Below the pieces are notes generated by a model. It was not told the origin of the DNA. It did not search any database and saw only the letters and a list, made by a program, of their open reading frames with translations. The translations under genes were made by a program, and so were the position numbers. From Candidatus Kapaibacterium sp. (GTDB lineage Bacteria > Bacteroidota > Ignavibacteria > Kapaibacteriales > UBA2268): 64,000 bases of DNA. Below are positions 27,043 to 38,308 of this stretch, piece after piece (positions within the stretch are counted from its first letter, which is position 1; each line of letters begins with the position of its first letter). Location of the stretch: assembly GCA_963665665.1 (NCBI GenBank), contig OY762428.1:2272001-2336000 (forward strand). The letters run 5' to 3'.

Positions 27043-27813
27043 TTAGAAATTATTCTCAACATCAAATGAACTAACCAGGAAACCCGGGTTCAGCAGTGAT
27101 TCTTTGTTGTAGATAAAACGTCTGCCACCGTTCTCAACCATACCGCCAGCTGCTTCCACAACACCCTGGCCTGCAGCAGTGTCCCATTCCATGGTAGGCC
27201 CTCCCCGGAAATACAGATGGGCTTTGCCCTCGGCCACCATACAGAATTTCAGTGAGCTGCCCCTGGAAATTGACTCAACAACATTAAATTTCGCAAGGAA
27301 TTCCTTTTCTGCTTCGCCGGCATGGGAACGTGACTGAACGGCGATTATTCCTTCGCCTGTGTTCTGATTAACTTTTATCTCTTCCTTAACTCCTTTGGTT
27401 ATTTTAAAAGCACCTTCTCCTTTTGTTCCAATATAAATATCATCCAATACTGGCGCTGATACTATACCAAATACCGGGTAACCGTCTTCTATCAGGGCAA
27501 TATTCACAGTAAATTCGCCGTTACGTTTTATAAATTCCTTTGTTCCGTCCAGAGGGTCAACCAGAAAGAAGCGTCTCCAATTCTTACGGTTTTCGTAGGG
27601 AATTTCCTTCTCTTCCTCTGAAATAATTGGAATATCCGGGTAGAATTCTCTTAAAGATTCAGTAATAACCTTATTTGAAGCTTTGTCGGCTTTTGTAAGC
27701 GGAGAGTTATCCGATTTCATCTCAACTCCGAAATCATCAGTATGGTAAATATCCATAATAGCTTTTCCGGCTTCAATAACTATCTCAATCATTTTATCAT
27801 TGTCAATCAGCAT
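27043..27813 (-). CDS. cysQ: 3'(2'),5'-bisphosphate nucleotidase CysQ
   Basis: SPLTKAD, DPLDGTKEFIKRNGEFTVNIAL, GSSLKFC and EWDTAAG motifs. Confidence 0.92.
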   Translation of the reverse strand: MLIDNDKMIEIVIEAGKAIMDIYHTDDFGVEMKSDNSPLTKADKASNKVITESLREFYPDIPIISEEEKEIPYENRKNWRRFFLVDPLDGTKEFIKRNGEFTVNIALIEDGYPVFGIVSAPVLDDIYIGTKGEGAFKITKGVKEEIKVNQNTGEGIIAVQSRSHAGEAEKEFLAKFNVVESISRGSSLKFCMVAEGKAHLYFRGGPTMEWDTAAGQGVVEAAGGMVENGGRRFIYNKESLLNPGFLVSSFDVENNF

Positions 27814-29775: not shown

Positions 29776-31338
29776 ATGACAAATAATGTTATCAATCTGA
29801 AGAAAAAGATAAAAGATTTTAAAACCGAAGGAATCAAATTTTCCGTATCAGGCAGGGAAATTCTGCCATATTATGATATAATTGATTTTCTAAAAATATA
29901 TTATCCGTTTATTAATTTGAAACAGATAGAAAGTTCATTTGGCAGTACATATATACCCTCTGATTTGTATGGCGGAAGGAAGTATAACCCTGAAAAATCA
30001 TTTACTGACGGGCATATTGCAAAATTGGCTGAGAATAATATTAACTTATCTTTAACACTTACCAATCATTACTTTTCTCCGGATATTTACGAAAAAAGTA
30101 AATATTTACTTGAGAAATACCATAAAGCCGGCAATTCAGTAATATGTGTAAATGATGAACTTGCAAAACAGATAAGGATTGATTTCCCGAAATATCAGCT
30201 CAGGGCAAGTATTATTAAAAATATAAATACTTTGAAAAAAGTTGAGGAAAATCTGGAAATATATGATTTTATTGTGATACCCATGGATAAAAATGACGAT
30301 GATGAATTTTTGAAAAGCCTGCCGGAAAAGAAAAAAATTATGCTTTTTGCCAATGCATCATGCGCTTATTCATGCCCGACAAGAACCTGCTATAAAGGAT
30401 TTTCGGAGGTAAATAGAGGTGGCGATCAGGTAAATCTTTGCTCAAGAAATAAAGTTGACAGATTGAACATGGGGCTTGTATTTTTTGATGTGCTGAAATT
30501 CAGGGATATGGGATTTGATTATTTTAAACTTGTTCCTTTGAAACAATATAAAACTAATGATGTAATAAAATTTTACAGCGAAAAAAGACTAAAACAAAAA
30601 ATTAATTTTAATGAAAAAAACATGTTTTATTTGTGTTCATTCCCAAAATCCGGGAGGACATGGCTGCGCTTTATACTGGCAAATTATATTAATCTATATT
30701 TTAAAACCGACGAAAAAATTAACCTTAACAATATGTTTGAATTCATTCCTAATAATATTTACGGAGGGCAAAAAGGTTTTGCCAGATTCAGATATTATAA
30801 CAGGCCGGAAATACCACTAATTTTATCTACCCATGAGAAATACAATCCGAATATTTTCAGTGAAAAAAGAATAATATTTTTAAAAAGGAACCCTTTGGAT
30901 ACGATAGTATCATACTATTTTCATATTAAAAATGATCCGGGATATCGGGGAAATATAAGCGAATTTATAAGAGATAAAAAATTTGGTATCAGGTATCTGA
31001 AAAGATACTATAAATTATGGGAAAAAAATCTGAATAATGAAAGTCTTATTATAAGCTATGAGGATATGATAGATGATATTGAATCTGTTATCATCAATGT
31101 TTTGAATTTTATTAATATTCAGGTTGATAATGAAATATTGAAGGAATCAATTAACAATTCTGATATTAATAATATGAGAAATTCAGAAAATCTGGTTAAA
31201 ATCCCTGACATGAATGAAAGTGCCGTCAGGGTAAGAAAAGGAAAGACAAATAATTACATGAATTATTTGTCTGAAGAGGATATTAAATATTGTAATGATA
31301 TTTTAGATGTAAAATTACATAAACTATTGGAAAAATAG
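29776..31338 (+). CDS. Fusion of a Cys-rich U32-like domain and a PAPS-dependent sulfotransferase
   Basis: C-terminal half has CSFPKSGRTW (5'-PSB), RNPLDTIVSYY (3'-PB), YED and VRKG. N-terminal half has GGR, LTLTN, ASII and NASCAYSCPTRTCY...C, which resemble U32-like TIM-barrel proteins (less certain). Confidence 0.7.
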   Translation: MTNNVINLKKKIKDFKTEGIKFSVSGREILPYYDIIDFLKIYYPFINLKQIESSFGSTYIPSDLYGGRKYNPEKSFTDGHIAKLAENNINLSLTLTNHYFSPDIYEKSKYLLEKYHKAGNSVICVNDELAKQIRIDFPKYQLRASIIKNINTLKKVEENLEIYDFIVIPMDKNDDDEFLKSLPEKKKIMLFANASCAYSCPTRTCYKGFSEVNRGGDQVNLCSRNKVDRLNMGLVFFDVLKFRDMGFDYFKLVPLKQYKTNDVIKFYSEKRLKQKINFNEKNMFYLCSFPKSGRTWLRFILANYINLYFKTDEKINLNNMFEFIPNNIYGGQKGFARFRYYNRPEIPLILSTHEKYNPNIFSEKRIIFLKRNPLDTIVSYYFHIKNDPGYRGNISEFIRDKKFGIRYLKRYYKLWEKNLNNESLIISYEDMIDDIESVIINVLNFINIQVDNEILKESINNSDINNMRNSENLVKIPDMNESAVRVRKGKTNNYMNYLSEEDIKYCNDILDVKLHKLLEK

Positions 31339-31350
31339 TTATTATGATAT

Positions 31351-31476
31351 CTAAGAAGTATGATAAGTATCGCTTTCGCCATCAGTTTCAGGTGGTGAAG
31401 AAATATTTCCATCAGTATCGCTTGAATCAAAATCAATTACCTGTGGCTTTTTCCATTCTTTTTTATTGTCTTTCAT
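31351..31476 (-). CDS. Lasso peptide precursor (41 aa; absent from the ORF track)
   Basis: MKDNKKEWKKPQVIDFDSSDTD|GNISSPPETDGESDTYHTS*. It has a WxxP leader motif, Thr at -2, Gly1, Glu8 and a C-terminal Ser, and lies 70 bp downstream of the cyclase on the same strand. Confidence 0.9.
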   Translation of the reverse strand: MKDNKKEWKKPQVIDFDSSDTDGNISSPPETDGESDTYHTS

Positions 31477-31546: not shown

Positions 31547-33496
31547 TCAAATTTCTATTTGTTCAATAAATTTAATAGTAGCTATAGTATGCAGAATCAG
31601 CTTTGTTGTTTTTGAAAACAGATCCTGAGTATATTTCTCTGATTTTATATTCTCAAGAGTTTCTGATATTTTATTCTTATCGAATCGAATAATTCCATCA
31701 TTGCTATATGTATTAATAACTTTTTCAGTCCTGTTCATATCCAGTAAAACGCGATATGAAAGATCCTTTGCCTGCTTGCCGCGTTTGGTATTGCTAAGAA
31801 CTTTTTCGGGCAATTTTCCTTTCATAGCGCTTCTGATGAGATAACGTCCGATACCTTCGTGTTTGAATAATCCAGCAGGTATTTGTTTTGTAAATTCGCT
31901 AACGCGCCTATCGTTTGTGGCATCCCTGGTTTCAATTTTATTTATTAAATTATAATCAATATTACTATTAGATCCTGTATTGGATATATGTTTTTCAAGT
32001 ACTTTCCTGTTTTCGAAATTATTCAATTTATTATTTCTGTATTTAATAGCAGATTTGGCTTTTAACTGGTTCAGATGTTTATCTATTAATTCGAATCTGT
32101 TCAGCGTTTCTTCGCAAAATGGAATCAGGTGATCCCTGCCAAGAGATTCATGTAATTTTTTCGGGAAAAGACCTGAAAGCTTTGTTTTAGTTATTTTGCG
32201 AATACTTCCTAAAGATGTTGTAAACAACGATTTATTTGTATGCCGGGATTCAGACTTCCATTCTGAAAATAATTCTATCAATTTATATTGTCTCAGCAGA
32301 TCATGATAAAGGCCTGCGCCTGTTCTGGAAATTGTTAAATTACCGGCCTGGCCGTTAAGAAGCACATTAACATTATCCCCGGCTGCAAGCTGCAATATCC
32401 GCCAATGCCAGAAGCCGTTTTGAAAGTTAGAAGTGAATAGTTTGTTATATTTCAAGTCAATATCTATCGCGTCAATAGGGTAGAAATCCTTAGCGTTAAC
32501 AAAGTTGTGAGCAATATCATCGGGATACATATCCAGGATGGATTGAACATAAGGGGTTTCATCAGAAATCGACTTGATTTTCGGGCATTTATCAGGGTAA
32601 GCCGGAACAGAAGAATAGGAATATATCTTTTTCCCTTTTTTTCTTAGTTGATCAATTGCCAGTACAGTTGAAGAACTTGAATCCAGGCCTCCGCTCAGGT
32701 TAGAGCCTGTCCTTCCTTTTGTGCTAATTCTTTTAGATACAGCGTCGCTGTATATATCAAGAAAATGTTCAATATAATCATCGTTATTTTTATAATTGAT
32801 CGGAGATAAATTTTCCGGTTTCCACCAGCGTTCTTTTTTTTCTAATCCTGAAGAAGAGAAAATATAATTGTGGAATCTATTAATATTGAAAATATTTGTA
32901 TAAAATGTATCCTCATCGCCGGATTTAACCTGAAATGGCAGCATTCTGCAAATAAGATGTTCATAATTGACTTCGGGAGTAAAATCCGGTAGTTTAAAAA
33001 ATGCTGTTATTGTTGAAGAAAAGTAAATTGCTTTCGATGTTTCATAATAATACAATGGATAAATGCCGCTATGCCCTGATAATATAATTATTTTCCTGTC
33101 CTGTTTGTCCCAAATCAGCGGCATTAAATCACCAAAGATATGATTGTTTGTATCAAATTCCCATTTTTCGAAAGCATGAAGATAAAGACTGATATCGGAC
33201 AATTTATCTATATCTGTTTTTCCGGCAAGGCCCAAAGAATTTATTAGATCATCCCTGTTGTCAATCCTCATTCTCCCGGCGCCGATATACCTCCCGGACG
33301 GAGATTTAACAGGTTGTTCTTCTATCGGATTTTCAGTAAGTATGTCAATGTTCATCTGCACGAGAGCAAAGTTCCCGTCAGTAAAATAGTTATAGCTGTC
33401 GTATTGAACATCATCATAAGCAGATCTCATTTTTTCCAGTATATCAATATCAGCCGGGCTGATATCCTTATTAAAAAAAGCAATTGTGATAGTCAT
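31547..33496 (-). CDS. Lasso peptide cyclase (asparagine-synthetase-like, C protein)
   Basis: LSGGLDSS ATP-binding motif, RIDNRDDL, LNGQAGN, DRRVSEF and RYLIRSAMKGKLP; lacks the N-terminal Cys of AsnB; adjacent to B1/B2. Confidence 0.9.
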   Translation of the reverse strand: MTITIAFFNKDISPADIDILEKMRSAYDDVQYDSYNYFTDGNFALVQMNIDILTENPIEEQPVKSPSGRYIGAGRMRIDNRDDLINSLGLAGKTDIDKLSDISLYLHAFEKWEFDTNNHIFGDLMPLIWDKQDRKIIILSGHSGIYPLYYYETSKAIYFSSTITAFFKLPDFTPEVNYEHLICRMLPFQVKSGDEDTFYTNIFNINRFHNYIFSSSGLEKKERWWKPENLSPINYKNNDDYIEHFLDIYSDAVSKRISTKGRTGSNLSGGLDSSSSTVLAIDQLRKKGKKIYSYSSVPAYPDKCPKIKSISDETPYVQSILDMYPDDIAHNFVNAKDFYPIDAIDIDLKYNKLFTSNFQNGFWHWRILQLAAGDNVNVLLNGQAGNLTISRTGAGLYHDLLRQYKLIELFSEWKSESRHTNKSLFTTSLGSIRKITKTKLSGLFPKKLHESLGRDHLIPFCEETLNRFELIDKHLNQLKAKSAIKYRNNKLNNFENRKVLEKHISNTGSNSNIDYNLINKIETRDATNDRRVSEFTKQIPAGLFKHEGIGRYLIRSAMKGKLPEKVLSNTKRGKQAKDLSYRVLLDMNRTEKVINTYSNDGIIRFDKNKISETLENIKSEKYTQDLFSKTTKLILHTIATIKFIEQIEI

Positions 33497-33501
33497 ATTT
33501 A

Positions 33502-33948
33502 TCAGCTAAAGTATTCTACAACGGTGAATTGCCTCATGCCCTCGCGTCCGGTAACAATTCTGTTGCCGGAGCGGAGCCATGCATGAGCTTTCATTTTTTG
33601 ATCATTATCTTTCGCCACGCCAAAGTAGATGGTTGATTTTATTTTTCTTCTGCCAAGCATCCATTTTACGGTTAATGCTTTGTCATAGCATTTGGATTCC
33701 CAGGGAGATTCACGAAAGGCGCGATTTGCCGCCCTGTTTACTTTCATAATAATATTCTTTTCCTGAGCATTTAATTCCATTTTTTCGCTTTCTTTCCTTT
33801 TCTTTCCAATAAGGAAGGAATAGTATCTCATAGGCAGCAAAAGAATAATTACTCTGGCAAAAGCATCATTTATAAGGGCTTCGATAAATAGTAATTTATC
33901 TTCAAAAAGGAAGCCGTAGAAATTCCTTATTTTCCTAAAAATTTTCAG
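33502..33948 (-). CDS. Lasso peptide leader peptidase (B2, transglutaminase-like)
   Basis: PWESKCYDKAL (catalytic Cys) and AHAWLRSG (His). The frame stays open up to a CTG at 33948, adding a typical B2 N-terminus (KLLFIEAL...ARVIILLLP). Confidence 0.88.
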   Translation of the reverse strand: MKIFRKIRNFYGFLFEDKLLFIEALINDAFARVIILLLPMRYYSFLIGKKRKESEKMELNAQEKNIIMKVNRAANRAFRESPWESKCYDKALTVKWMLGRRKIKSTIYFGVAKDNDQKMKAHAWLRSGNRIVTGREGMRQFTVVEYFS

Positions 33949-34226
33949 GACTTCACATCAATAAGTTTCATTTTTACGAGTTTTTCCAGAAATTCCGTTG
34001 TGTCTTTTTCGCATACTTCCCTGTCGATATTATATTCTTCGAGTAGTTTATTTACCAGGTCGCCAAAGCTTATTTCATTTTCAATTTTTGCCCATATTAC
34101 TGATCCAATCTCGTCGAAACCATAGTATTTGCTGGTTTCTACGCTCATCATTACAGTCTGGTTGTCAATCTCGCTGCTGATAAAATCATCTTTCCTGATG
34201 ATTATTGTATTGCCTGTTATTTCCAT
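33945..34226 (-). CDS. PqqD-family RiPP recognition element (lasso B1)
   Basis: IDNQTVMM...KYYGFDEIGSVIW...LLEEY..DREVCEKD..EFL; 93 aa. Confidence 0.92.
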   Translation of the reverse strand: MEITGNTIIIRKDDFISSEIDNQTVMMSVETSKYYGFDEIGSVIWAKIENEISFGDLVNKLLEEYNIDREVCEKDTTEFLEKLVKMKLIDVKS

Positions 34227-34258
34227 GATATTTATCTATATGTTAATAAATGATAAAA

Positions 34259-34308
34259 TTCTTTACATAAGGAACGAACTCTGATAAGAAAACACGATTT
34301 TCTTTACA
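34259..34308. repeat. Direct repeat, left flank of fic
   Basis: 50 bp identical to 35453-35502; contains the 32-bp unit AACTCTGATAAGAAAACACGATTTTCTTTACA (34277-34308). Confidence 0.95.
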
Positions 34309-34319
34309 AAGAATAAAAA

Positions 34320-35381
34320 CTATCCGATTTTCAATAATTCCATCAATTTTTCATTGACATAATAATTCCCTGTGCCAAGCCGGTGTTTTGTCAGCAGGCC
34401 GTCATTTGCCATCTCGTTTAAATATTTTGCGGCGGTTATTCTTGATACTCCTAGATCTGTTTCAAGGAATTCAATTTTCGTATAAGGATGTTTGAATAAA
34501 TTGTTCAGTAAATCCTGGCTGTAGAATTTATATTTTGAACGTATAATATTTTTATATTCAAATATCAATTCCCGGATATTTTTTATTAATACTATTGTTT
34601 CCAGGGAAGTTTGTTCAACACATTCAAGGATATAAATCAGCCAGTTTTCAAAAATATTGCTTTGCCTGACATCCTGTAACAGATTGTAATAATGTTCTTT
34701 GTTTAATATAATATATCTGCTATGGTACAAGATCGGTAATTTTAATAGGTCTTTCAGAACAAGATATAACACATTCAATATTCTTCCTGTTCTGCCATTT
34801 CCATCATAAAACGGATGAATGCTTTCGAATTGATAATGTATTATTGCCATTTTTACCAAAGGATCCAAATCAGAAATCGAATCGTCATTGATGAAGAGTT
34901 CAAGATTTGACATAAGCTCAAGAATTTCATTCGGATCCTGGGGCGGAGTATAAACTATGTCTCCACTTGTATCATTTTTCAGCACAGTTCCCGGTACTTT
35001 CCTGAAACCGGCAGAATTTTTTTCAAGTTCCTCCTGAATTTCAAGAATGGTATTTCTTGTTATCATCCCGCTTTCAGAAACCAGGGCAAAACCTTTCTTA
35101 AGCGCCGAACCGTAGTTTTGAACTTCTTTTGCGTTAAGGGAATCAAAACCGTCAAGATTCAGTTCGGATTTATACAGGTCATCGTGTGTTGTGATGATAT
35201 TTTCTATTGCCGAACTGTCTTTTGCTTCCTGAAGCCCCAGAGTATTTATTAAAATATTCTCATTGGGAATTGTTGTTGAAATACCTTTCAATTCGGCGAG
35301 CGCTCTGTGAGCAGAAGAAAGTTTTTTGAGAACTTTTACAGTCTCCAGTTCTACTTTATTATATGGTAATTTCTGTATCAT
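34320..35381 (-). CDS. Fic-family protein (class II-like, with C-terminal HTH)
   Basis: HPFYDGNGRTGR Fic motif; SSAIEN inhibitory motif; LGVSRITAAKYL HTH. Start at ATG 35381 (MIQKLP); the track's extension lies inside the repeats. Confidence 0.92.
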   Translation of the reverse strand: MIQKLPYNKVELETVKVLKKLSSAHRALAELKGISTTIPNENILINTLGLQEAKDSSAIENIITTHDDLYKSELNLDGFDSLNAKEVQNYGSALKKGFALVSESGMITRNTILEIQEELEKNSAGFRKVPGTVLKNDTSGDIVYTPPQDPNEILELMSNLELFINDDSISDLDPLVKMAIIHYQFESIHPFYDGNGRTGRILNVLYLVLKDLLKLPILYHSRYIILNKEHYYNLLQDVRQSNIFENWLIYILECVEQTSLETIVLIKNIRELIFEYKNIIRSKYKFYSQDLLNNLFKHPYTKIEFLETDLGVSRITAAKYLNEMANDGLLTKHRLGTGNYYVNEKLMELLKIG

Positions 35382-35388
35382 AATTTCA

Positions 35389-35502
35389 AACTCTGATAAG
35401 AAAACACGATTTTCTTTACAAAGATACAAAACTCTGATAAGAAAACACGATTTTCTTTACATAAGGAACGAACTCTGATAAGAAAACACGATTTTCTTTA
35501 CA
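35389..35502. repeat. Three tandem 32-bp units with 41-bp period, right flank of fic
   Basis: Units at 35389-35420, 35430-35461 and 35471-35502, separated by 9-nt linkers AAGATACAA and TAAGGAACG; internal dyad AAGAAAA-cacga-TTTTCTT. Confidence 0.95.
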
Positions 35503-35505
35503 TAG

Positions 35506-36375
35506 TTAAACCAGAATATCTCCATTTTCAGAAAGGTATCCATATTTTTTCATTATTTCCGAATGGTTTGCGATTATTGATTCAACCATAGCATCGTTCA
35601 GCTGATTTCGCCAGGCGCCCTTTTTGCCTTTGCGGAAGAAGGATTCGGATTTTGGATTCTTTTCCTTAAAGCCGTGCTCTTTTTCCATTTCTTTTAATTT
35701 GTCAAATGTGCTTAGTCCAACTGCTTTTGAAATTTGCCCGTGCGTGTAATCGAAATCTGTAAATTCCAAAGCCCGTGTGAATTCTTTTACAGGATCGTCC
35801 TTCATATCTTCATATCTCAAAATAATAACCGGAATTTTATCCTGCTCAGTCCAGCTTCTGATATGCAGGCTCCATGACAGGAGTTTTTGCCTAAGCTGGT
35901 TATGAAGAGTACCGTCGTTGGTACAAAAAGCGAAATTCTCGTTGTTCATATCCAGGATACTTTTATGAATCGGTTTATTTGAATGATGTGCAAAGGAACA
36001 GGCTACATCAAAAGGATTCCTTATAATATATACAGCTGAATGGCTAATTTCTTCCGGGAACATTGGCCGCCCGTCAGGTAGAAGTGTATAAGCGTCATGC
36101 GTTTTCAGGAATCGTTTGTCTTCTTCAAATTCATCGGCAAGGTGTTTGTATATATCCGGCCTTGCCAGGTCAATCTCATCCATTGTCAGATCGGAAGCGG
36201 CAGTTCCGGCCAGATCGTCAAATGTATCCCGGCTGCTGGAAATAGGGCCTCCAGTCAGGTTATTTATATCTGCCGGTTCAGAATAACCCATTACAAGATT
36301 TGTGAAAAATACTCTGAACCATGTGTTACCTGATTTTGGGTAGGAGGCAAGCCAGATTATTTTTTTATTTTCCAC
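35506..36375 (-). CDS. PAPS-dependent sulfotransferase (lasso cluster)
   Basis: WLASYPKSGNTW, KTHD, RNPFDVACS, RYEDM and FFRKGKKG motifs; overlaps the kinase gene end. Confidence 0.92.
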   Translation of the reverse strand: MENKKIIWLASYPKSGNTWFRVFFTNLVMGYSEPADINNLTGGPISSSRDTFDDLAGTAASDLTMDEIDLARPDIYKHLADEFEEDKRFLKTHDAYTLLPDGRPMFPEEISHSAVYIIRNPFDVACSFAHHSNKPIHKSILDMNNENFAFCTNDGTLHNQLRQKLLSWSLHIRSWTEQDKIPVIILRYEDMKDDPVKEFTRALEFTDFDYTHGQISKAVGLSTFDKLKEMEKEHGFKEKNPKSESFFRKGKKGAWRNQLNDAMVESIIANHSEIMKKYGYLSENGDILV

Positions 36376-37279
36376 TATTAGCCTCCAAATCTTTTAGTAT
36401 TGCGTCAACAATCATTGCAGGATCCGATTTCATCCTAATCCTGTTAAGTTTTCGTATAAAGATATCTTTGGAGTTTGCTATTTGTGTTAAAAAGATAAAA
36501 TGTTTGTCCGGCTGTCCGGTTCTTTGAACAAATCTTTTACGGTATGTTGAATTTCTTAGAAATTTGATTTTCTTAATTGAATCAATTTCTGATATTTCAA
36601 TATCTTCAAAAGGCCCCGGCTTTATAAAATATATTCCCATTACCGGCCTTGATTTTTCAATATCGTGTATTGATATTGGAATTCTGAATTTTTCCTGTTC
36701 TTCTCTTATCTTTTCGATATTTGAATAATCTGTTTTCAGCATTTTCAGGCTGTCATTCCAAAGTTTAATCTCTGAATGTCCGGGAATTATTGATATAATC
36801 CCATCGTCGTCTATAGTTAATAATGAAGTATCGTCACAAAGCAGGCCGTATCCTCTTTTTACAAATTCAGCGGCAATGGTGGATTTTCCGGCGCCTGATT
36901 TCCCTGAGAAAAGTAATGCCCTGCCATCGATTTCCACTGCGCTGGCATGGAGGGCGAATATTCCGCGCTGATGCGCCAGGGCCCCGAGAACTGATCCGAA
37001 AAGGAATACTTTTAACTCGGATTCCGAAGTATCGGGATTAAGGTCAACAGTAATAGTCCTGCCGTCTTCAACAAGGAATCTTCCCACGCTTTCTAAGTTA
37101 AATAGAAATTTGCCCGGGGCTGCGGAATATAAAGGATAGACCTGTGCATTTCCGTTCAATTTTTCAGGTACGTCACCTTTGCGGATTATAACATCGCTTT
37201 CTTTTTCTGTTTCCGGAAGTCCGGAAAACTCGAATTCCGAGTCAAATACAAAACCGTATGCGTAATATTTTTTTCTCAT
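36365..37279 (-). CDS. HPr-kinase-like lasso peptide kinase
   Basis: YYAYG, LHASAV, GKSGAGKST P-loop, LCDD and IKLW: the signature set of paeninodin-type (PadeK-like) kinases. Confidence 0.88.
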   Translation of the reverse strand: MRKKYYAYGFVFDSEFEFSGLPETEKESDVIIRKGDVPEKLNGNAQVYPLYSAAPGKFLFNLESVGRFLVEDGRTITVDLNPDTSESELKVFLFGSVLGALAHQRGIFALHASAVEIDGRALLFSGKSGAGKSTIAAEFVKRGYGLLCDDTSLLTIDDDGIISIIPGHSEIKLWNDSLKMLKTDYSNIEKIREEQEKFRIPISIHDIEKSRPVMGIYFIKPGPFEDIEISEIDSIKKIKFLRNSTYRKRFVQRTGQPDKHFIFLTQIANSKDIFIRKLNRIRMKSDPAMIVDAILKDLEANSGK

Positions 37280-37285
37280 AGTATA

Positions 37286-38308
37286 TTATTTGGTTTTAAT
37301 TTTTAAATAATCAAAAACTATATAAAATGGAATTAAAGGATAATTTAGGTATCTGAATATTCCGGGAAATTTAATTTTTGATATATATGATATAGAATAA
37401 AAAGATCCAAAAAATATTTTCAATTTAAAAAAAATGGATCTTTTCAATTTCATTTTATAAATAATAGAATCAACAATACTATTAAAAGTCTTGATATCAT
37501 AGGGAATCAGTATTCTTTTTACACAGAAATCACTTAATTTTCCATGAAACTCTATATTATCATTCAACTTAATTTTGTGATTATAAATATACGATAAAAG
37601 ATTTAATAAAGGGAAGTAAAGGCGTTCTAAATGATATCTTTCCGCAAGTTTCCCTGCTGCAAAAAACAAATCAGGACGATTCATGTATATAAAATGTATA
37701 TCCCGAAGCCAAAATAGACGATTCCAGAAATGTATTCCTCCATGAATAATCAAAAAAAGAATATTTTCTGTTGATAAGGAGCTATAATCTACATAAATTT
37801 TAGATAGGTCATATTCAGTGTTAACATTTTTGGGAATCCAATTATGTTTAAATAATTTCCAATGAAGTTCAATTAAAATATTGGTTTTTGAACTAACAAA
37901 TTTCATCTGATTATTTCTGCGAAATAATTCATTAAAATTCTCTTTGTTGTAATCACTATAATCCTTATAAATTTTAATATTGTTCTCAGTTAAAACTTGT
38001 ATAGCTTTATTGATATTTTTAAATTCAATCAGGATATCAATATCTCTGCTCATCCTATCCGCCGGATCTGAGTATAGAAGCCCGGTTATTCCCGGCCCTT
38101 TCAGGTTTCTGAATTTAATTCCATTAATTTCAAGAATTTTGGAAATTCGTTTCAATTCAGTATTGATAACAAGCATTTTCCGGGTTTCTATTTTAATCAG
38201 GCTATCTATTTGTGTCAATATTGACTCGCTGAGATACGAACTATATAATTTCAATTTTCTAAGTGCAGGAAGAAGCAGGCGATGCCTTCTGCCAAGCTTT
38301 ACAAACAT
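37286..38308 (-). CDS. Nucleotidyltransferase (NTP_transf_5-like); true start probably upstream
   Basis: LKG, LY..P..R.S.DIDILI, IELHW and RLFWLRDI motifs. The frame stays open upstream (...FLEKGFDWQMFVKLGRRHRL). Confidence 0.85.
   Translation of the reverse strand: MFVKLGRRHRLLLPALRKLKLYSSYLSESILTQIDSLIKIETRKMLVINTELKRISKILEINGIKFRNLKGPGITGLLYSDPADRMSRDIDILIEFKNINKAIQVLTENNIKIYKDYSDYNKENFNELFRRNNQMKFVSSKTNILIELHWKLFKHNWIPKNVNTEYDLSKIYVDYSSLSTENILFLIIHGGIHFWNRLFWLRDIHFIYMNRPDLFFAAGKLAERYHLERLYFPLLNLLSYIYNHKIKLNDNIEFHGKLSDFCVKRILIPYDIKTFNSIVDSIIYKMKLKRSIFFKLKIFFGSFYSISYISKIKFPGIFRYLNYPLIPFYIVFDYLKIKTK

What the first reader, a model, noticed from the sequence alone, without database searches (positions are those of the whole stretch)
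31351..31476. Unannotated 41-aa lasso precursor with core GNISSPPETDGESDTYHTS
Seen: ATG(31476) to TAG(31351) encodes MKDNKKEWKKPQVIDFDSSDTD-GNISSPPETDGESDTYHTS, below the ORF-track size cut-off. Established lasso rules fit: W-x-x-P RRE-binding motif, Thr at -2, Gly1, an acceptor at position 8 (Glu), and bulky Tyr16/His17 as candidate plugs. The His-x-Ser end resembles paeninodin's HYDS terminus, the kinase substrate. Inference: a Gly1-Glu8 macrolactam containing Pro-Pro, with Tyr16 in an acidic context (E-S-D-T-Y) as a plausible sulfation site. The TDG and SDT motifs each occur twice (DNA repeats ccatcagt and agtatcgctt), hinting at internal duplication.
Basis: partly seen in the sequence, partly recalled or inferred. 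Interest (0 to 1): 0.82.

Follow-up and report, generated by a model that had tools for sequence, protein, structure and literature searches.

The report
Lasso peptide precursor gene in Bacteroidota
A real 41-codon gene at the end of a lasso-peptide operon encodes the peptide that the neighbouring enzymes tie into a knot and decorate, but related peptides suggest the ring closes on a different residue from the one first proposed.

Summary
The ORF exists exactly as described (31476..31351, minus strand, 41 aa). It is the last gene of a co-directional operon: nucleotidyltransferase, HPr-kinase-like kinase, sulfotransferase, an inserted Fic gene, B1 (PqqD/RRE), B2 protease, lasso cyclase, precursor.

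It is the only small ORF in the 64-kb window that fits a canonical lasso-precursor pattern (simulations: mean 0.175 per 64 kb). It has one significant homologue, P0045 (39 aa, 54% identity, E 7e-4 against 1.8 billion proteins). P0045 keeps the W-x-x-P leader motif, D-T-D before the core, Pro-Pro, Asp-Gly and the Y-H-T-S end. I accept it as a lasso precursor.

The proposed Gly1-Glu8 ring is not supported by conservation. Glu8 occurs in 1 of 8 related peptides; an Asp-Gly pair exactly 11 residues after the leader Thr occurs in 8 of 8. The acceptor is therefore more likely Asp10 (precursor D32). That implies either a 10-residue ring, outside the known 7-9, or cleavage one residue later to give an Asn1-Asp9 ring.

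C-terminal Ser phosphorylation follows from the family. Tyr sulfation is plausible, because the operon's sulfotransferase is closest to peptide-phenol sulfotransferases. It is a new member of a known kind, with an open ring question.

The parts
31351..31476 (-). Precursor gene (41 codons plus TAG). On the canonical reading the leader is M1-D22 (31411-31476), the core is G23-S41 (31354-31410) and the stop is 31351-31353.
   Evidence: Translation. Only pattern match in the window. Homologue P0045.
31444..31455 (-). Leader W8-K-K-P11, the aromatic-x-x-Pro motif expected to dock on the B1 RRE. V13 follows at the usual Leu position.
   Evidence: Conserved as W-H-K-P-K-L in P0045. B1+precursor co-fold gave weak support.
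31414..31416 (-). Leader Thr21 (-2 if cleavage is D22/G23; -3 if cleavage is G23/N24).
   Evidence: Invariant in the 5-sequence alignment and present in 8 of 8 related peptides.
31387..31389 (-).
   Evidence: Present here only: 1 of 8 related peptides has an acidic residue at core positions 7-9.
31378..31383 (-). Asp32-Gly33 (core Asp10-Gly11), the conserved candidate isopeptide acceptor.
   Evidence: Asp at Thr+11 followed by Gly in 8 of 8 peptides.
31354..31365 (-). C-terminal Y38-H-T-S41. Ser41 is the candidate phosphorylation site. Tyr38 is a candidate plug and sulfation site.
   Evidence: Y-H-T-S is identical in P0045. Kinase and sulfotransferase are in the operon. C-terminal Ser phosphorylation in the family: PMC6993621 passages.
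31547..33496 (-). Lasso cyclase (C), asparagine-synthase-like, 649 aa.
   Evidence: Pfam Asn_synthase and GATase_7. The best NCBIfam hit is NF033535, lasso isopeptide cyclase, at 232.6 bits, below its 525-bit cut-off. Seven relatives at 49-55% identity.
33502..33957 (-). B2 leader protease. The ORF from the first ATG/GTG/TTG is 33502-33840 (112 aa), but the conserved N-terminus continues upstream in frame to the stop at 33958-33960.
   Evidence: NF033537 scores 82.2 bits over profile positions 22-129 for the 112-aa ORF. It scores 90.7 bits over positions 2-129 for the stop-to-stop frame. There is no canonical start codon in the extension.
33945..34226 (-). B1, a PqqD-like RiPP recognition element, 93 aa.
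   Evidence: Pfam PqqD. NF033536 lasso PqqD chaperone at 87 bits, above its 80-bit cut-off.
34241..35505 (-). Fic-family gene (34320-35429) bracketed by 41-nt direct repeat units. Probably an inserted cassette and not part of the pathway.
   Evidence: Pfam Fic_N, Fic and SoFic-like_C. Repeat family D1. An exact 30-mer occurs 4 times, once on one side of the gene and three times on the other, against 0 expected.
35506..36375 (-). Sulfotransferase, 289 aa, aryl/peptide-phenol type.
   Evidence: Pfam Sulfotransfer_1, 8e-28. Best solved relatives are Teg12 (7e-17), Teg14, StaL and SULT1A1.
36365..37279 (-). HPr-kinase-like kinase, 304 aa. P-loop GKSGAGKS and a following Asp-Asp are present.
   Evidence: Pfam Hpr_kinase_C. 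TIGR04352 HprK-related kinase A, below its cut-off. PDB HPr kinases, 4e-5. Sequence.
37286..38308 (-). Nucleotidyltransferase (NTP_transf_5), 340 aa, first gene of the operon.
   Evidence: Pfam PF14907, 5e-29.
29776..31338 (+). Convergent 520-aa gene that ends 12 nt from the precursor's stop. It has an N-terminal domain of about 280 aa with no known family, plus a second Sulfotransfer_1 domain. Whether it belongs to the pathway is open.
   Evidence: Pfam. PDB estrogen/aryl SULTs for residues 284-500. The single-sequence fold of the N-domain failed, pLDDT 31.5.

Best explanation
The ORF is a genuine lasso-peptide precursor gene (A). It is the last gene of a minus-strand operon: N (nucleotidyltransferase), K (HPr-kinase-like), S (sulfotransferase), an inserted Fic gene, then B1, B2, C and A.

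Proposed pathway (all steps inferred, none shown):
1. The B1 RRE binds the leader through W8-x-x-P11-x-V13.
2. [quoted passage not shown]
3. The nucleotidyltransferase may extend that phosphate, as PsmN does with hexose in pseudomycoidin.
4. The aryl-type sulfotransferase may O-sulfate Tyr38.
5. B2 cuts next to the conserved D-T-D.
6. The cyclase joins the new N-terminus to an acidic side chain.

From comparison with relatives I take that side chain to be Asp32 (core Asp10, about 0.6) and not Glu30 (core Glu8, about 0.3). With Asp32 as acceptor there are two options that I cannot separate:
- a 10-residue Gly1-Asp10 ring, with canonical cleavage and Thr at -2;
- a 9-residue Asn-to-Asp ring after cleavage one residue later, with Thr at -3.

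Tyr38/His39 and the modified C-terminus would sit below the ring as plugs.
For: Gene context:
- B1 is above its NCBIfam cut-off and B2 is above its cut-off. The cyclase's best hit is the lasso cyclase model.
- All genes are co-directional with small gaps.

More than chance:
- This is the only ORF in 64 kb that fits the pattern. Simulations gave a mean of 0.175.

Conservation:
- P0045 (39 aa) is the only short hit among 4 hits at E<=0.001 in 1.84 billion representatives (E 7.3e-4, 54% identity over residues 5-41). The pairwise BLASTP E-value is 3e-12.
- The identities fall on K-K-E-W, K-P, D-x-D-S-x-D-T-D, N, P-P, G and Y-H-T-S.

Acceptor:
- Asp followed by Gly sits at Thr+11 in 8 of 8 peptides: the window, P0045, the L002 ORF and five Sphingomonadales loci. 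An acidic residue at core positions 7-9 occurs in 1 of 8.

B1-leader binding:
- The co-fold gave weak support. The score was 0.47 (median of 3 runs) against 0.01 for the best of 3 controls.
- That mark was reached by 51 of 78 solved complexes and 2 of 108 mismatched pairs. At 0.60 or under it was reached by only 5 of those 78 solved complexes and by all 4 mismatches that passed (of 180).
- The runs agree in at least 95% of contacts, and the partner pLDDT is 56.
- RRE-leader complexes have been solved, so the pass may reflect likeness only.

Tailoring:
- HprK-like kinases phosphorylate the C-terminal Ser of the precursor, and PsmN adds hexose to that phosphate (PMC6993621 passages; PMC9266682 passages).
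- The sulfotransferase's nearest solved relatives are Teg12, Teg14 and StaL, then phenol SULTs.
Against: - No transcript, peptide or mass data exist.
- Only one close homologue of the peptide was found, and its genomic context could not be seen.
- The other seven peptides used for the spacing argument sit beside cyclases only 24-28% identical to this one. Five of them share one identical core, so they count as one lineage.
- The L002 locus shows no B1 or B2 within the region examined.
- The window peptide does carry Glu8, so a canonical 8-residue ring remains chemically possible.
- No curated lasso-precursor model matches the peptide at E<=10.
- B2 lacks a canonical start codon in front of its conserved N-terminus, a Fic cassette splits the operon, and no exporter gene is present. 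The cluster may therefore be impaired.
- The complex prediction is only a weak pass.
Confidence: 0.8

Rival explanations
1. One reading: canonical cleavage after D22 and an 8-residue Gly1-Glu8 macrolactam, with an 11-residue tail.
For: Every canonical rule is met in this one sequence: Thr at -2, Gly1, Glu at position 8 and a bulky Tyr/His in the tail. Ring sizes of 7-9 are the only ones described (PMC6993621 introduction passage; PMC12214591 methods passage).
Against: Glu8 is not conserved. P0045 has no acidic residue at core positions 7-9, and the same holds for 7 of 8 related peptides. All 8 keep Asp-Gly at core 10-11.
Confidence: 0.3
2. The ORF is a chance open frame in an AT-rich spacer between convergent genes and encodes nothing.
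For: An open frame of 41 codons is not rare at 38% GC. Two other ORFs of 44 and 57 aa overlap it. No terminator-like site was found, and promoter-like sites were not clearly above the shuffle mean (9 found against 5.9, sd 2.4).
Against: It is the only pattern match in the window. It has a significant end-to-end homologue of the same length. Its position and strand follow the cyclase. No RNA family matches and there is no unusual RNA folding (z 0.79), so nothing else explains the spacer.
Confidence: 0.05
3. The precursor gene is real but the cluster is decaying and makes no mature product in this strain.
For: The conserved N-terminus of B2 has no ATG/GTG/TTG in front of it. A Fic gene bracketed by 41-nt repeats interrupts the operon between S and B1. 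There is no ABC exporter in or next to the operon.
Against: All reading frames are intact and full length. A CTG at 33946-33948 that overlaps the B1 stop codon, or an ATT at 33940-33942, could start B2. Pseudomycoidin is made without B1/B2 and without the exporter in E. coli (PMC6993621 passages).
Confidence: 0.2

Closest known systems
Paeninodin (Paenibacillus dendritiformis) and pseudomycoidin (Bacillus pseudomycoides): kinase-associated lasso peptides of Firmicutes
   Same: Split B1/B2, an asparagine-synthase-like cyclase, an HPr-kinase-like gene, a precursor ending in Ser, and, as in psm, an NTP-transferase gene. Sulfotransferase genes were also noted in some of those clusters (PMC8498205 and PMC4289311 passages; PMC6993621 passages).
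   Different: - Host phylum: here Bacteroidota-like, with T9SS sorting domains on 3 proteins.
- Gene order: the precursor comes last, after C.
- No D exporter.
- The peptide does not match the curated paeninodin-family model NF033524 (no hit for the window peptide; 14 bits for P0045 against a 27-bit cut-off).
- In those peptides the ring is Ala1 to an inner Asp, within the 7-9 range. Here the conserved Asp is one residue further from the leader Thr.
Metanodin (soil metagenome; PMC12670498)
   Same: It sets a precedent for Asn as the ring-forming first residue, and for a precursor gene missed by automatic tools (abstract; section 9 read in full). This bears on the Asn24-Asp32 alternative here.
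   Different: Metanodin keeps Thr two residues before the Asn. Here the Asn alternative would put Thr at -3. Those passages mention no kinase or sulfotransferase.
Teg12, Teg14 and StaL glycopeptide sulfotransferases
   Same: They are the nearest solved relatives of the operon's 289-aa sulfotransferase (E 7e-17 to 2e-11). From my own knowledge, not from a call, they are PAPS-dependent enzymes that sulfate phenolic hydroxyls on a peptide scaffold.
   Different: Their substrates are non-ribosomal glycopeptide aglycones. Similarity covers only about residues 106-234 in the best stretches. No lasso peptide substrate has been shown for any sulfotransferase in the papers I searched.
P450-associated lasso clusters of Sphingomonadales MAGs (loci L004, L005, L006, L009, L011)
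   Same: Same Thr-to-Asp-Gly spacing, and a Tyr-x-Ser end in the precursor. In L006, B1, C and B2 were all seen; in L004, C and B2; in L009, C only. L005 and L011 were not scanned.
   Different: The cyclases are 24-26% identical. The precursor is upstream and divergent from the cyclase. A cytochrome P450 lies next to the precursor in L004 and L006. No kinase or sulfotransferase was seen in L004, L006 or L009.

Membership tests
Lasso peptide precursor (generic) | Short ORF next to, and co-directional with, the lasso cyclase and the B (B1/B2) genes | tested here: met
   70 nt downstream of C on the same strand. B1 and B2 are immediately upstream of C.
Lasso peptide precursor (generic) | Leader with an aromatic-x-x-Pro-x-Leu/Val recognition motif and a Thr near the cleavage site | tested here: met
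   W8-K-K-P11-Q-V13 and T21. Both are conserved in P0045. Actual binding to B1 has only weak computational support.
Lasso peptide precursor (generic) | Small residue at core position 1 and an Asp/Glu acceptor at core position 7, 8 or 9 | tested here: inconclusive
   Gly1 and Glu8 are present in this sequence. No acidic residue at core positions 7-9 in 7 of 8 related peptides, while Asp10 is present in 8 of 8.
Lasso peptide precursor (generic) | Threaded lariat topology of the mature product | not testable with these tools
   Needs MS/MS, a carboxypeptidase or thermal assay, or NMR.
Lasso peptide precursor (generic) | Match to a curated precursor or leader model (NCBIfam or Pfam) | tested here: not met
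   No family at E<=10 in NCBIfam or Pfam for the window peptide. The Atlas's nearest named clusters are lasso leader families at 0.83 and 0.81, which is below the level that counts as more than a lead.
Paeninodin-type (kinase-tailored) lasso peptides | HPr-kinase-like gene in the cluster and a precursor ending in Ser | tested here: met
   Hpr_kinase_C, PDB HPr kinases, and a C-terminal Ser in the window peptide and P0045. Phosphorylation itself was not tested.
Paeninodin-type (kinase-tailored) lasso peptides | Match to NF033524, the paeninodin family lasso peptide model | tested here: not met
   No hit for the window peptide. P0045 scores 14 bits against a 27-bit cut-off, over its first 9 aligned residues only.
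Paeninodin-type (kinase-tailored) lasso peptides | ABC exporter (D) in the cluster | tested here: not met
   None among the operon genes or their immediate neighbours.
Sulfated (Tyr-O-sulfo) RiPP | PAPS-type sulfotransferase in the cluster and a conserved Tyr in the core | tested here: met
   Sulfotransfer_1 in the operon and a second copy in the convergent gene. Aryl/peptide-phenol relatives. Tyr38 is conserved in P0045.
Sulfated (Tyr-O-sulfo) RiPP | Sulfate actually present on the peptide | not testable with these tools
   Needs accurate-mass MS, which separates sulfo from phospho.

The most novel reading that the evidence does not exclude
This peptide, P0045 and the more distant relatives form a lasso family whose macrolactam has ten residues (residue 1 to Asp10). 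That is outside the 7-9 range that defines every characterised lasso peptide. In this reading the wider ring is kept threaded by unusually bulky C-terminal decorations, namely sulfo-Tyr and a phospho(glycosyl)-Ser. This would also explain why RODEO-style rules would pick the non-conserved Glu8.
Probability: 0.25. Interest if true: 0.8.

Novelty: new member of a known kind. Interest (0 to 1): 0.5.

Why it matters
Lasso clusters that carry kinase, nucleotidyltransferase and sulfotransferase genes have been noted since 2014-2016. In the papers I could search, however, the sulfotransferase has no demonstrated product, and no member from Bacteroidota was described as characterised. A passage in PMC7533575 cites Tietz 2017 for Bacteroidetes being an underexplored source.

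This locus offers a compact test case with three or four tailoring enzymes and a 19-residue core. The comparative result is the more useful part. The conserved acceptor sits one residue beyond the canonical window, so standard mining rules would assign the wrong ring. Two mutants (E30A and D32A) with one mass measurement would show whether lasso cyclases can make a 10-residue ring, or whether B2 can cut with Thr at -3.

Tried and rejected
- Word-index protein searches with the peptide alone found nothing. With the two-sequence alignment they found only P0045.
Annotation status, accession numbers and the host organism therefore stayed unchecked.
- The one genome-contig scan returned 11 loci from 48 pattern matches. 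The only close one, L001 (53% identity), is a 2.6-kb chimeric contig. Its GC jumps from about 0.3 to 0.6 at about 2100 and the cyclase frame is cut at residue 617, so no downstream precursor could be seen.
- In four Sphingomonadales loci (L003, L007, L008, L010) the contig begins at or just before the cyclase, so the upstream precursor position is missing.
The contigs that carry P0045 and the cyclases P0002-P0008 were therefore not examined.
- The other three hits of the representative search (P0042-P0044, 643-1522 aa) are long proteins. P0042 was checked and is a repeat protein matching only K-P-x-x-x-D...S-x-P-P, so I rejected it as unrelated. P0043 and P0044 were not inspected.
- A single-sequence AlphaFold model of the N-terminal 282 aa of the 520-aa protein was unusable (pLDDT 31.5), so I ran no fold search. 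Pfam gives nothing for that domain.
- Rfam found nothing, RNA folding was unremarkable and the promoter/terminator scan gave no signal. I searched by eye for a Bacteroidetes-type promoter motif upstream of the ATG, found no exact match, and make no claim.
- Papers not held: PMC4919450, PMC5391289 and PMC6092944. I did not see the original paeninodin genome-mining figure, the RODEO data set or the paeninodin leader mutagenesis. Their supplements may list related Bacteroidetes precursors.

Full report
**1. The observation**

One search translates window 31351-31476 (minus strand) to MKDNKKEWKKPQVIDFDSSDTDGNISSPPETDGESDTYHTS plus a stop, exactly as reported. The start is ATG at 31476. An in-frame TTG lies two codons upstream.

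The two DNA repeats named in the finding are present. CCATCAGT is at 31379 and 31409, and AGTATCGCTT is at 31366 and 31414.

An open frame of 41 codons is not evidence in itself at 37.8% GC. ORFs of 44 and 57 aa overlap the same place in other frames.

I therefore asked how often a canonical lasso-precursor pattern arises by chance. The pattern was: aromatic-x-x-P-x-[LIVM], then 3-14 residues, T-x-[GASC], an acidic residue at core positions 7-9, and a tail of 5-20 residues to the end.
- Among 1185 small-ORF starts in the window, only this ORF matches.
- 200 Markov simulations of the window gave a mean of 0.175 matches, or 0.02 with a C-terminal Ser.
- The match lies 70 nt downstream of the cyclase gene on the same strand.

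**2. Context**

The minus strand carries, in order:

| Coordinates | Gene | Notes |
|---|---|---|
| 37286-38308 | NTP_transf_5 nucleotidyltransferase | First gene of the operon |
| 36365-37279 | HPr-kinase-like protein | P-loop and a following Asp-Asp visible; PDB HPr kinases at 4e-5, |
| 35506-36375 | Sulfotransfer_1 protein | |
| 34320-35429 | Fic-family gene | Inserted cassette (see below) |
| 33945-34226 | B1 | NF033536, 87 bits against an 80-bit cut-off |
| 33502-33840 | B2 | NF033537, 82 bits against a 33-bit cut-off |
| 31547-33496 | Asparagine-synthase-like cyclase | Best model NF033535, lasso isopeptide cyclase; 232.6 bits, below its 525-bit cut-off |
| 31351-31476 | The ORF | |

Other context:
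- A convergent 520-aa gene (29776-31338) ends 12 nt from the ORF's stop. It carries a second sulfotransferase domain behind an N-terminal domain of unknown family.
- A CysQ 3'(2'),5'-bisphosphate nucleotidase, above its cut-off, lies at 27043-27813.
- The surrounding genes are housekeeping genes (SerRS, enolase, MnmG/E, ATP synthase).
- Three proteins carry T9SS sorting domains, so the host is Bacteroidota-like.
- No ABC exporter is in or next to the operon.

**3. Is the peptide conserved?**

- The word-index search found nothing.
- The exhaustive phmmer search of 1.84 billion representatives returned 4 hits at E<=0.001.
- One is a 39-aa protein, P0045, aligned over residues 5-41 of the query at 54% identity (E 7.3e-4 for the whole library; pairwise E 3e-12).
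- The identities are K-K-E-W, K-P, D-x-D-S-x-D-T-D, N, P-P, G and the terminal Y-H-T-S. These are the leader recognition motif, the cleavage region and the C-terminus.
- The other three hits are long proteins. P0042, the one I checked, is a repeat protein with a trivial match.
- P0045's genomic context could not be seen, because the collections that hold it were closed.
- The cyclase has seven relatives at 49-55% identity. The only one found in the genome collection (L001) sits on a 2.6-kb chimeric contig that breaks inside the cyclase.

**4. The ring**

P0045 has no acidic residue at core positions 7, 8 or 9 on the canonical reading. Its first acidic residue is Asp10, followed by Gly. The window peptide also has Asp10-Gly11.

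I then looked at the more distant loci.
- A Flavobacteriia MAG (L002; cyclase 28% identical) has a 44-aa ORF directly downstream of its cyclase with W-x-x-P-K-L, a Thr, and again Asp-Gly at Thr+11.
- Five Sphingomonadales loci (cyclases 24-26% identical) share a conserved precursor upstream of the cyclase with the same spacing.
- Counted by script, Asp at Thr+11 followed by Gly occurs in 8 of 8 peptides. An acidic residue at core 7-9 occurs in 1 of 8, the window's Glu8.

Caveats:
- The five Sphingomonadales cores are identical, so there are four independent sequences, not eight.
- L002 shows no B1 or B2 in the stretch examined.
- Only P0045 is a close relative.

Even so, the simplest reading is that Asp32 (core Asp10) is the acceptor and Glu30 is incidental. 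That leaves two options.
- Canonical cleavage (Thr at -2; residue 1 is G, S, A or G in the four lineages) with a 10-residue ring.
- Cleavage one residue later (Thr at -3; residue 1 is N, N, G or G) with a 9-residue ring.

Rings of 7-9 are the only ones stated in the passages I read (PMC6993621; PMC12214591). A search for 'lasso peptide' plus '10-membered' returned 8 papers, none with either term in the title or abstract. Asn at position 1 has one precedent, metanodin, which still has Thr at -2 (PMC12670498; abstract, section 9).

I cannot separate the two options. My estimates are about 0.3 for Gly1-Glu8 and about 0.6 for the Asp32 acceptor. I split the latter roughly evenly between a 10-residue and a 9-residue ring; my figure for the 10-residue ring alone is 0.25.

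**5. Tailoring**

[quoted passage not shown] PsmN, an NTP-transferase homologue, adds one or two hexoses to that phosphate (PMC6993621 passages; PMC9266682 passages; PMC8498205 passages).
- The window has both enzyme types and a precursor ending in Ser, which is conserved in P0045. Phosphorylation of Ser41 is therefore an inference from family precedent.
- Sulfotransferase genes in lasso clusters have been noted but not assigned a product (PMC8498205 passage; PMC4289311 passage).
- Searches for 'lasso peptide' with 'sulfotransferase' (18 papers) and with 'sulfation' (12 papers) listed no paper with the second term in its title or abstract.
- The operon's sulfotransferase is closest, among solved structures, to Teg12 (7e-17), Teg14 and StaL, followed by phenol/aryl SULTs. 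This favours a phenolic acceptor.
- Tyr38 is the only Tyr in the core and is conserved in P0045.

**6. B1 binding**

- A co-fold of B1 with the precursor gave weak support. The score was 0.47 (median of three runs) against 0.01 for the best of 3 controls.
- That mark was reached by 51 of 78 solved complexes and 2 of 108 mismatched pairs. At 0.60 or under it was reached by only 5 of those 78 and by all 4 mismatches that passed (of 180).
- The runs agree in at least 95% of contacts, and the partner pLDDT is 56.
- RRE-leader complexes are solved, so this shows likeness at best.
- PadeB1 binds its leader with nanomolar affinity and hands it to B2 (PMC5067487 passages).

**7. Integrity of the cluster**

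- The conserved N-terminus of B2 lies upstream of the first ATG/GTG/TTG. The stop-to-stop frame (33502-33957) matches profile positions 2-129 of NF033537 at 90.7 bits, against positions 22-129 at 82.2 bits for the canonical-start ORF.
- B2 must therefore start at a rare codon, or it has lost its start. A CTG overlaps the B1 stop and an ATT lies two codons later.
- The Fic gene is bracketed by 41-nt direct repeat units. An exact 30-mer occurs four times, against 0 expected. It looks like an insertion.
- These points, and the missing exporter, leave room for an impaired cluster.

**8. Internal duplication**

The S-D-T and T-D-G motifs do recur, but in swapped order. The second copy is absent from P0045, and the repeat statistics are modest. 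I do not adopt this idea.

**9. Verdict**

- This is a real lasso precursor gene in a tailoring-rich cluster of a known kind (kinase, nucleotidyltransferase, sulfotransferase). The host phylum has no characterised member in the literature I could search.
- The peptide matches no curated precursor model. The Atlas's nearest named clusters are lasso leader families at 0.83 and 0.81, which is a lead only.
- The proposed Gly1-Glu8 ring is probably wrong. The conserved Asp10-Gly11 raises a testable question about ring size or cleavage register.

Noticed in passing
window 34241-35505 (-): A Fic-family gene (34320-35429) sits inside the lasso operon between the sulfotransferase and B1. It is bracketed by 41-nt direct repeat units: one full unit on the B1 side and three on the other side. 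An exact 30-mer occurs 4 times against 0 expected. Each unit contains a short AGAAAA....TTTTCT palindrome. It looks like an inserted cassette or a repeat-mediated insertion.
   Followed up: partly
window 33840-33957 (-): The conserved N-terminal 38 or so residues of B2 are encoded upstream of the first ATG/GTG/TTG, with no canonical start codon in the frame. A CTG overlaps the B1 stop codon (tcCTGa) and an ATT lies two codons later. This is either a rare-start gene coupled to B1 or a lost start codon.
   Followed up: partly
window 29776-31338 (+): A 520-aa protein fuses an N-terminal domain of about 280 residues, with no Pfam or NCBIfam match and several Cys residues around 204-222, to a C-terminal Sulfotransfer_1 domain. 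It is convergent with the precursor gene and ends 12 nt from it. The single-sequence AlphaFold model was unusable (pLDDT 31.5).
   Followed up: partly
window 27043-27813 (-): A CysQ 3'(2'),5'-bisphosphate nucleotidase (301.9 bits against a 228.8-bit cut-off) lies about 2 kb from the second sulfotransferase gene. It would remove PAP, the by-product of PAPS-dependent sulfation. The linkage may be a coincidence.
   Followed up: no
L001 1-2641: The only close cyclase relative in the genome collection is on a contig titled as Hyphomicrobiales. GC is about 0.3 over the first 2100 bases or so (B2 and cyclase, Bacteroidota-like) and about 0.6 afterwards, and the cyclase frame breaks at residue 617. 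It is probably an assembly chimera.
   Followed up: partly
L004 9369-9512 (-), L005 449-592 (-), L006 7649-7783 (-), L009 9424-9567 (-), L011 9412-9555 (-): Five Sphingomonadales MAG loci share a conserved candidate lasso precursor with an identical 16-residue core that starts with four Gly and ends Y-N-S. It is divergent from the cyclase, and a cytochrome P450 lies next to it in L004 and L006. On the canonical reading the only acidic core residue is at position 10.
   Followed up: partly
L002 7380-11816 (+): A Flavobacteriia MAG has an 817-aa AMP-binding enzyme, a lasso-cyclase-like gene and a 44-aa precursor-like ORF in a row. No B1 or B2 was seen in the 12 kb examined, so it may be a B-less cluster.
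   Followed up: no
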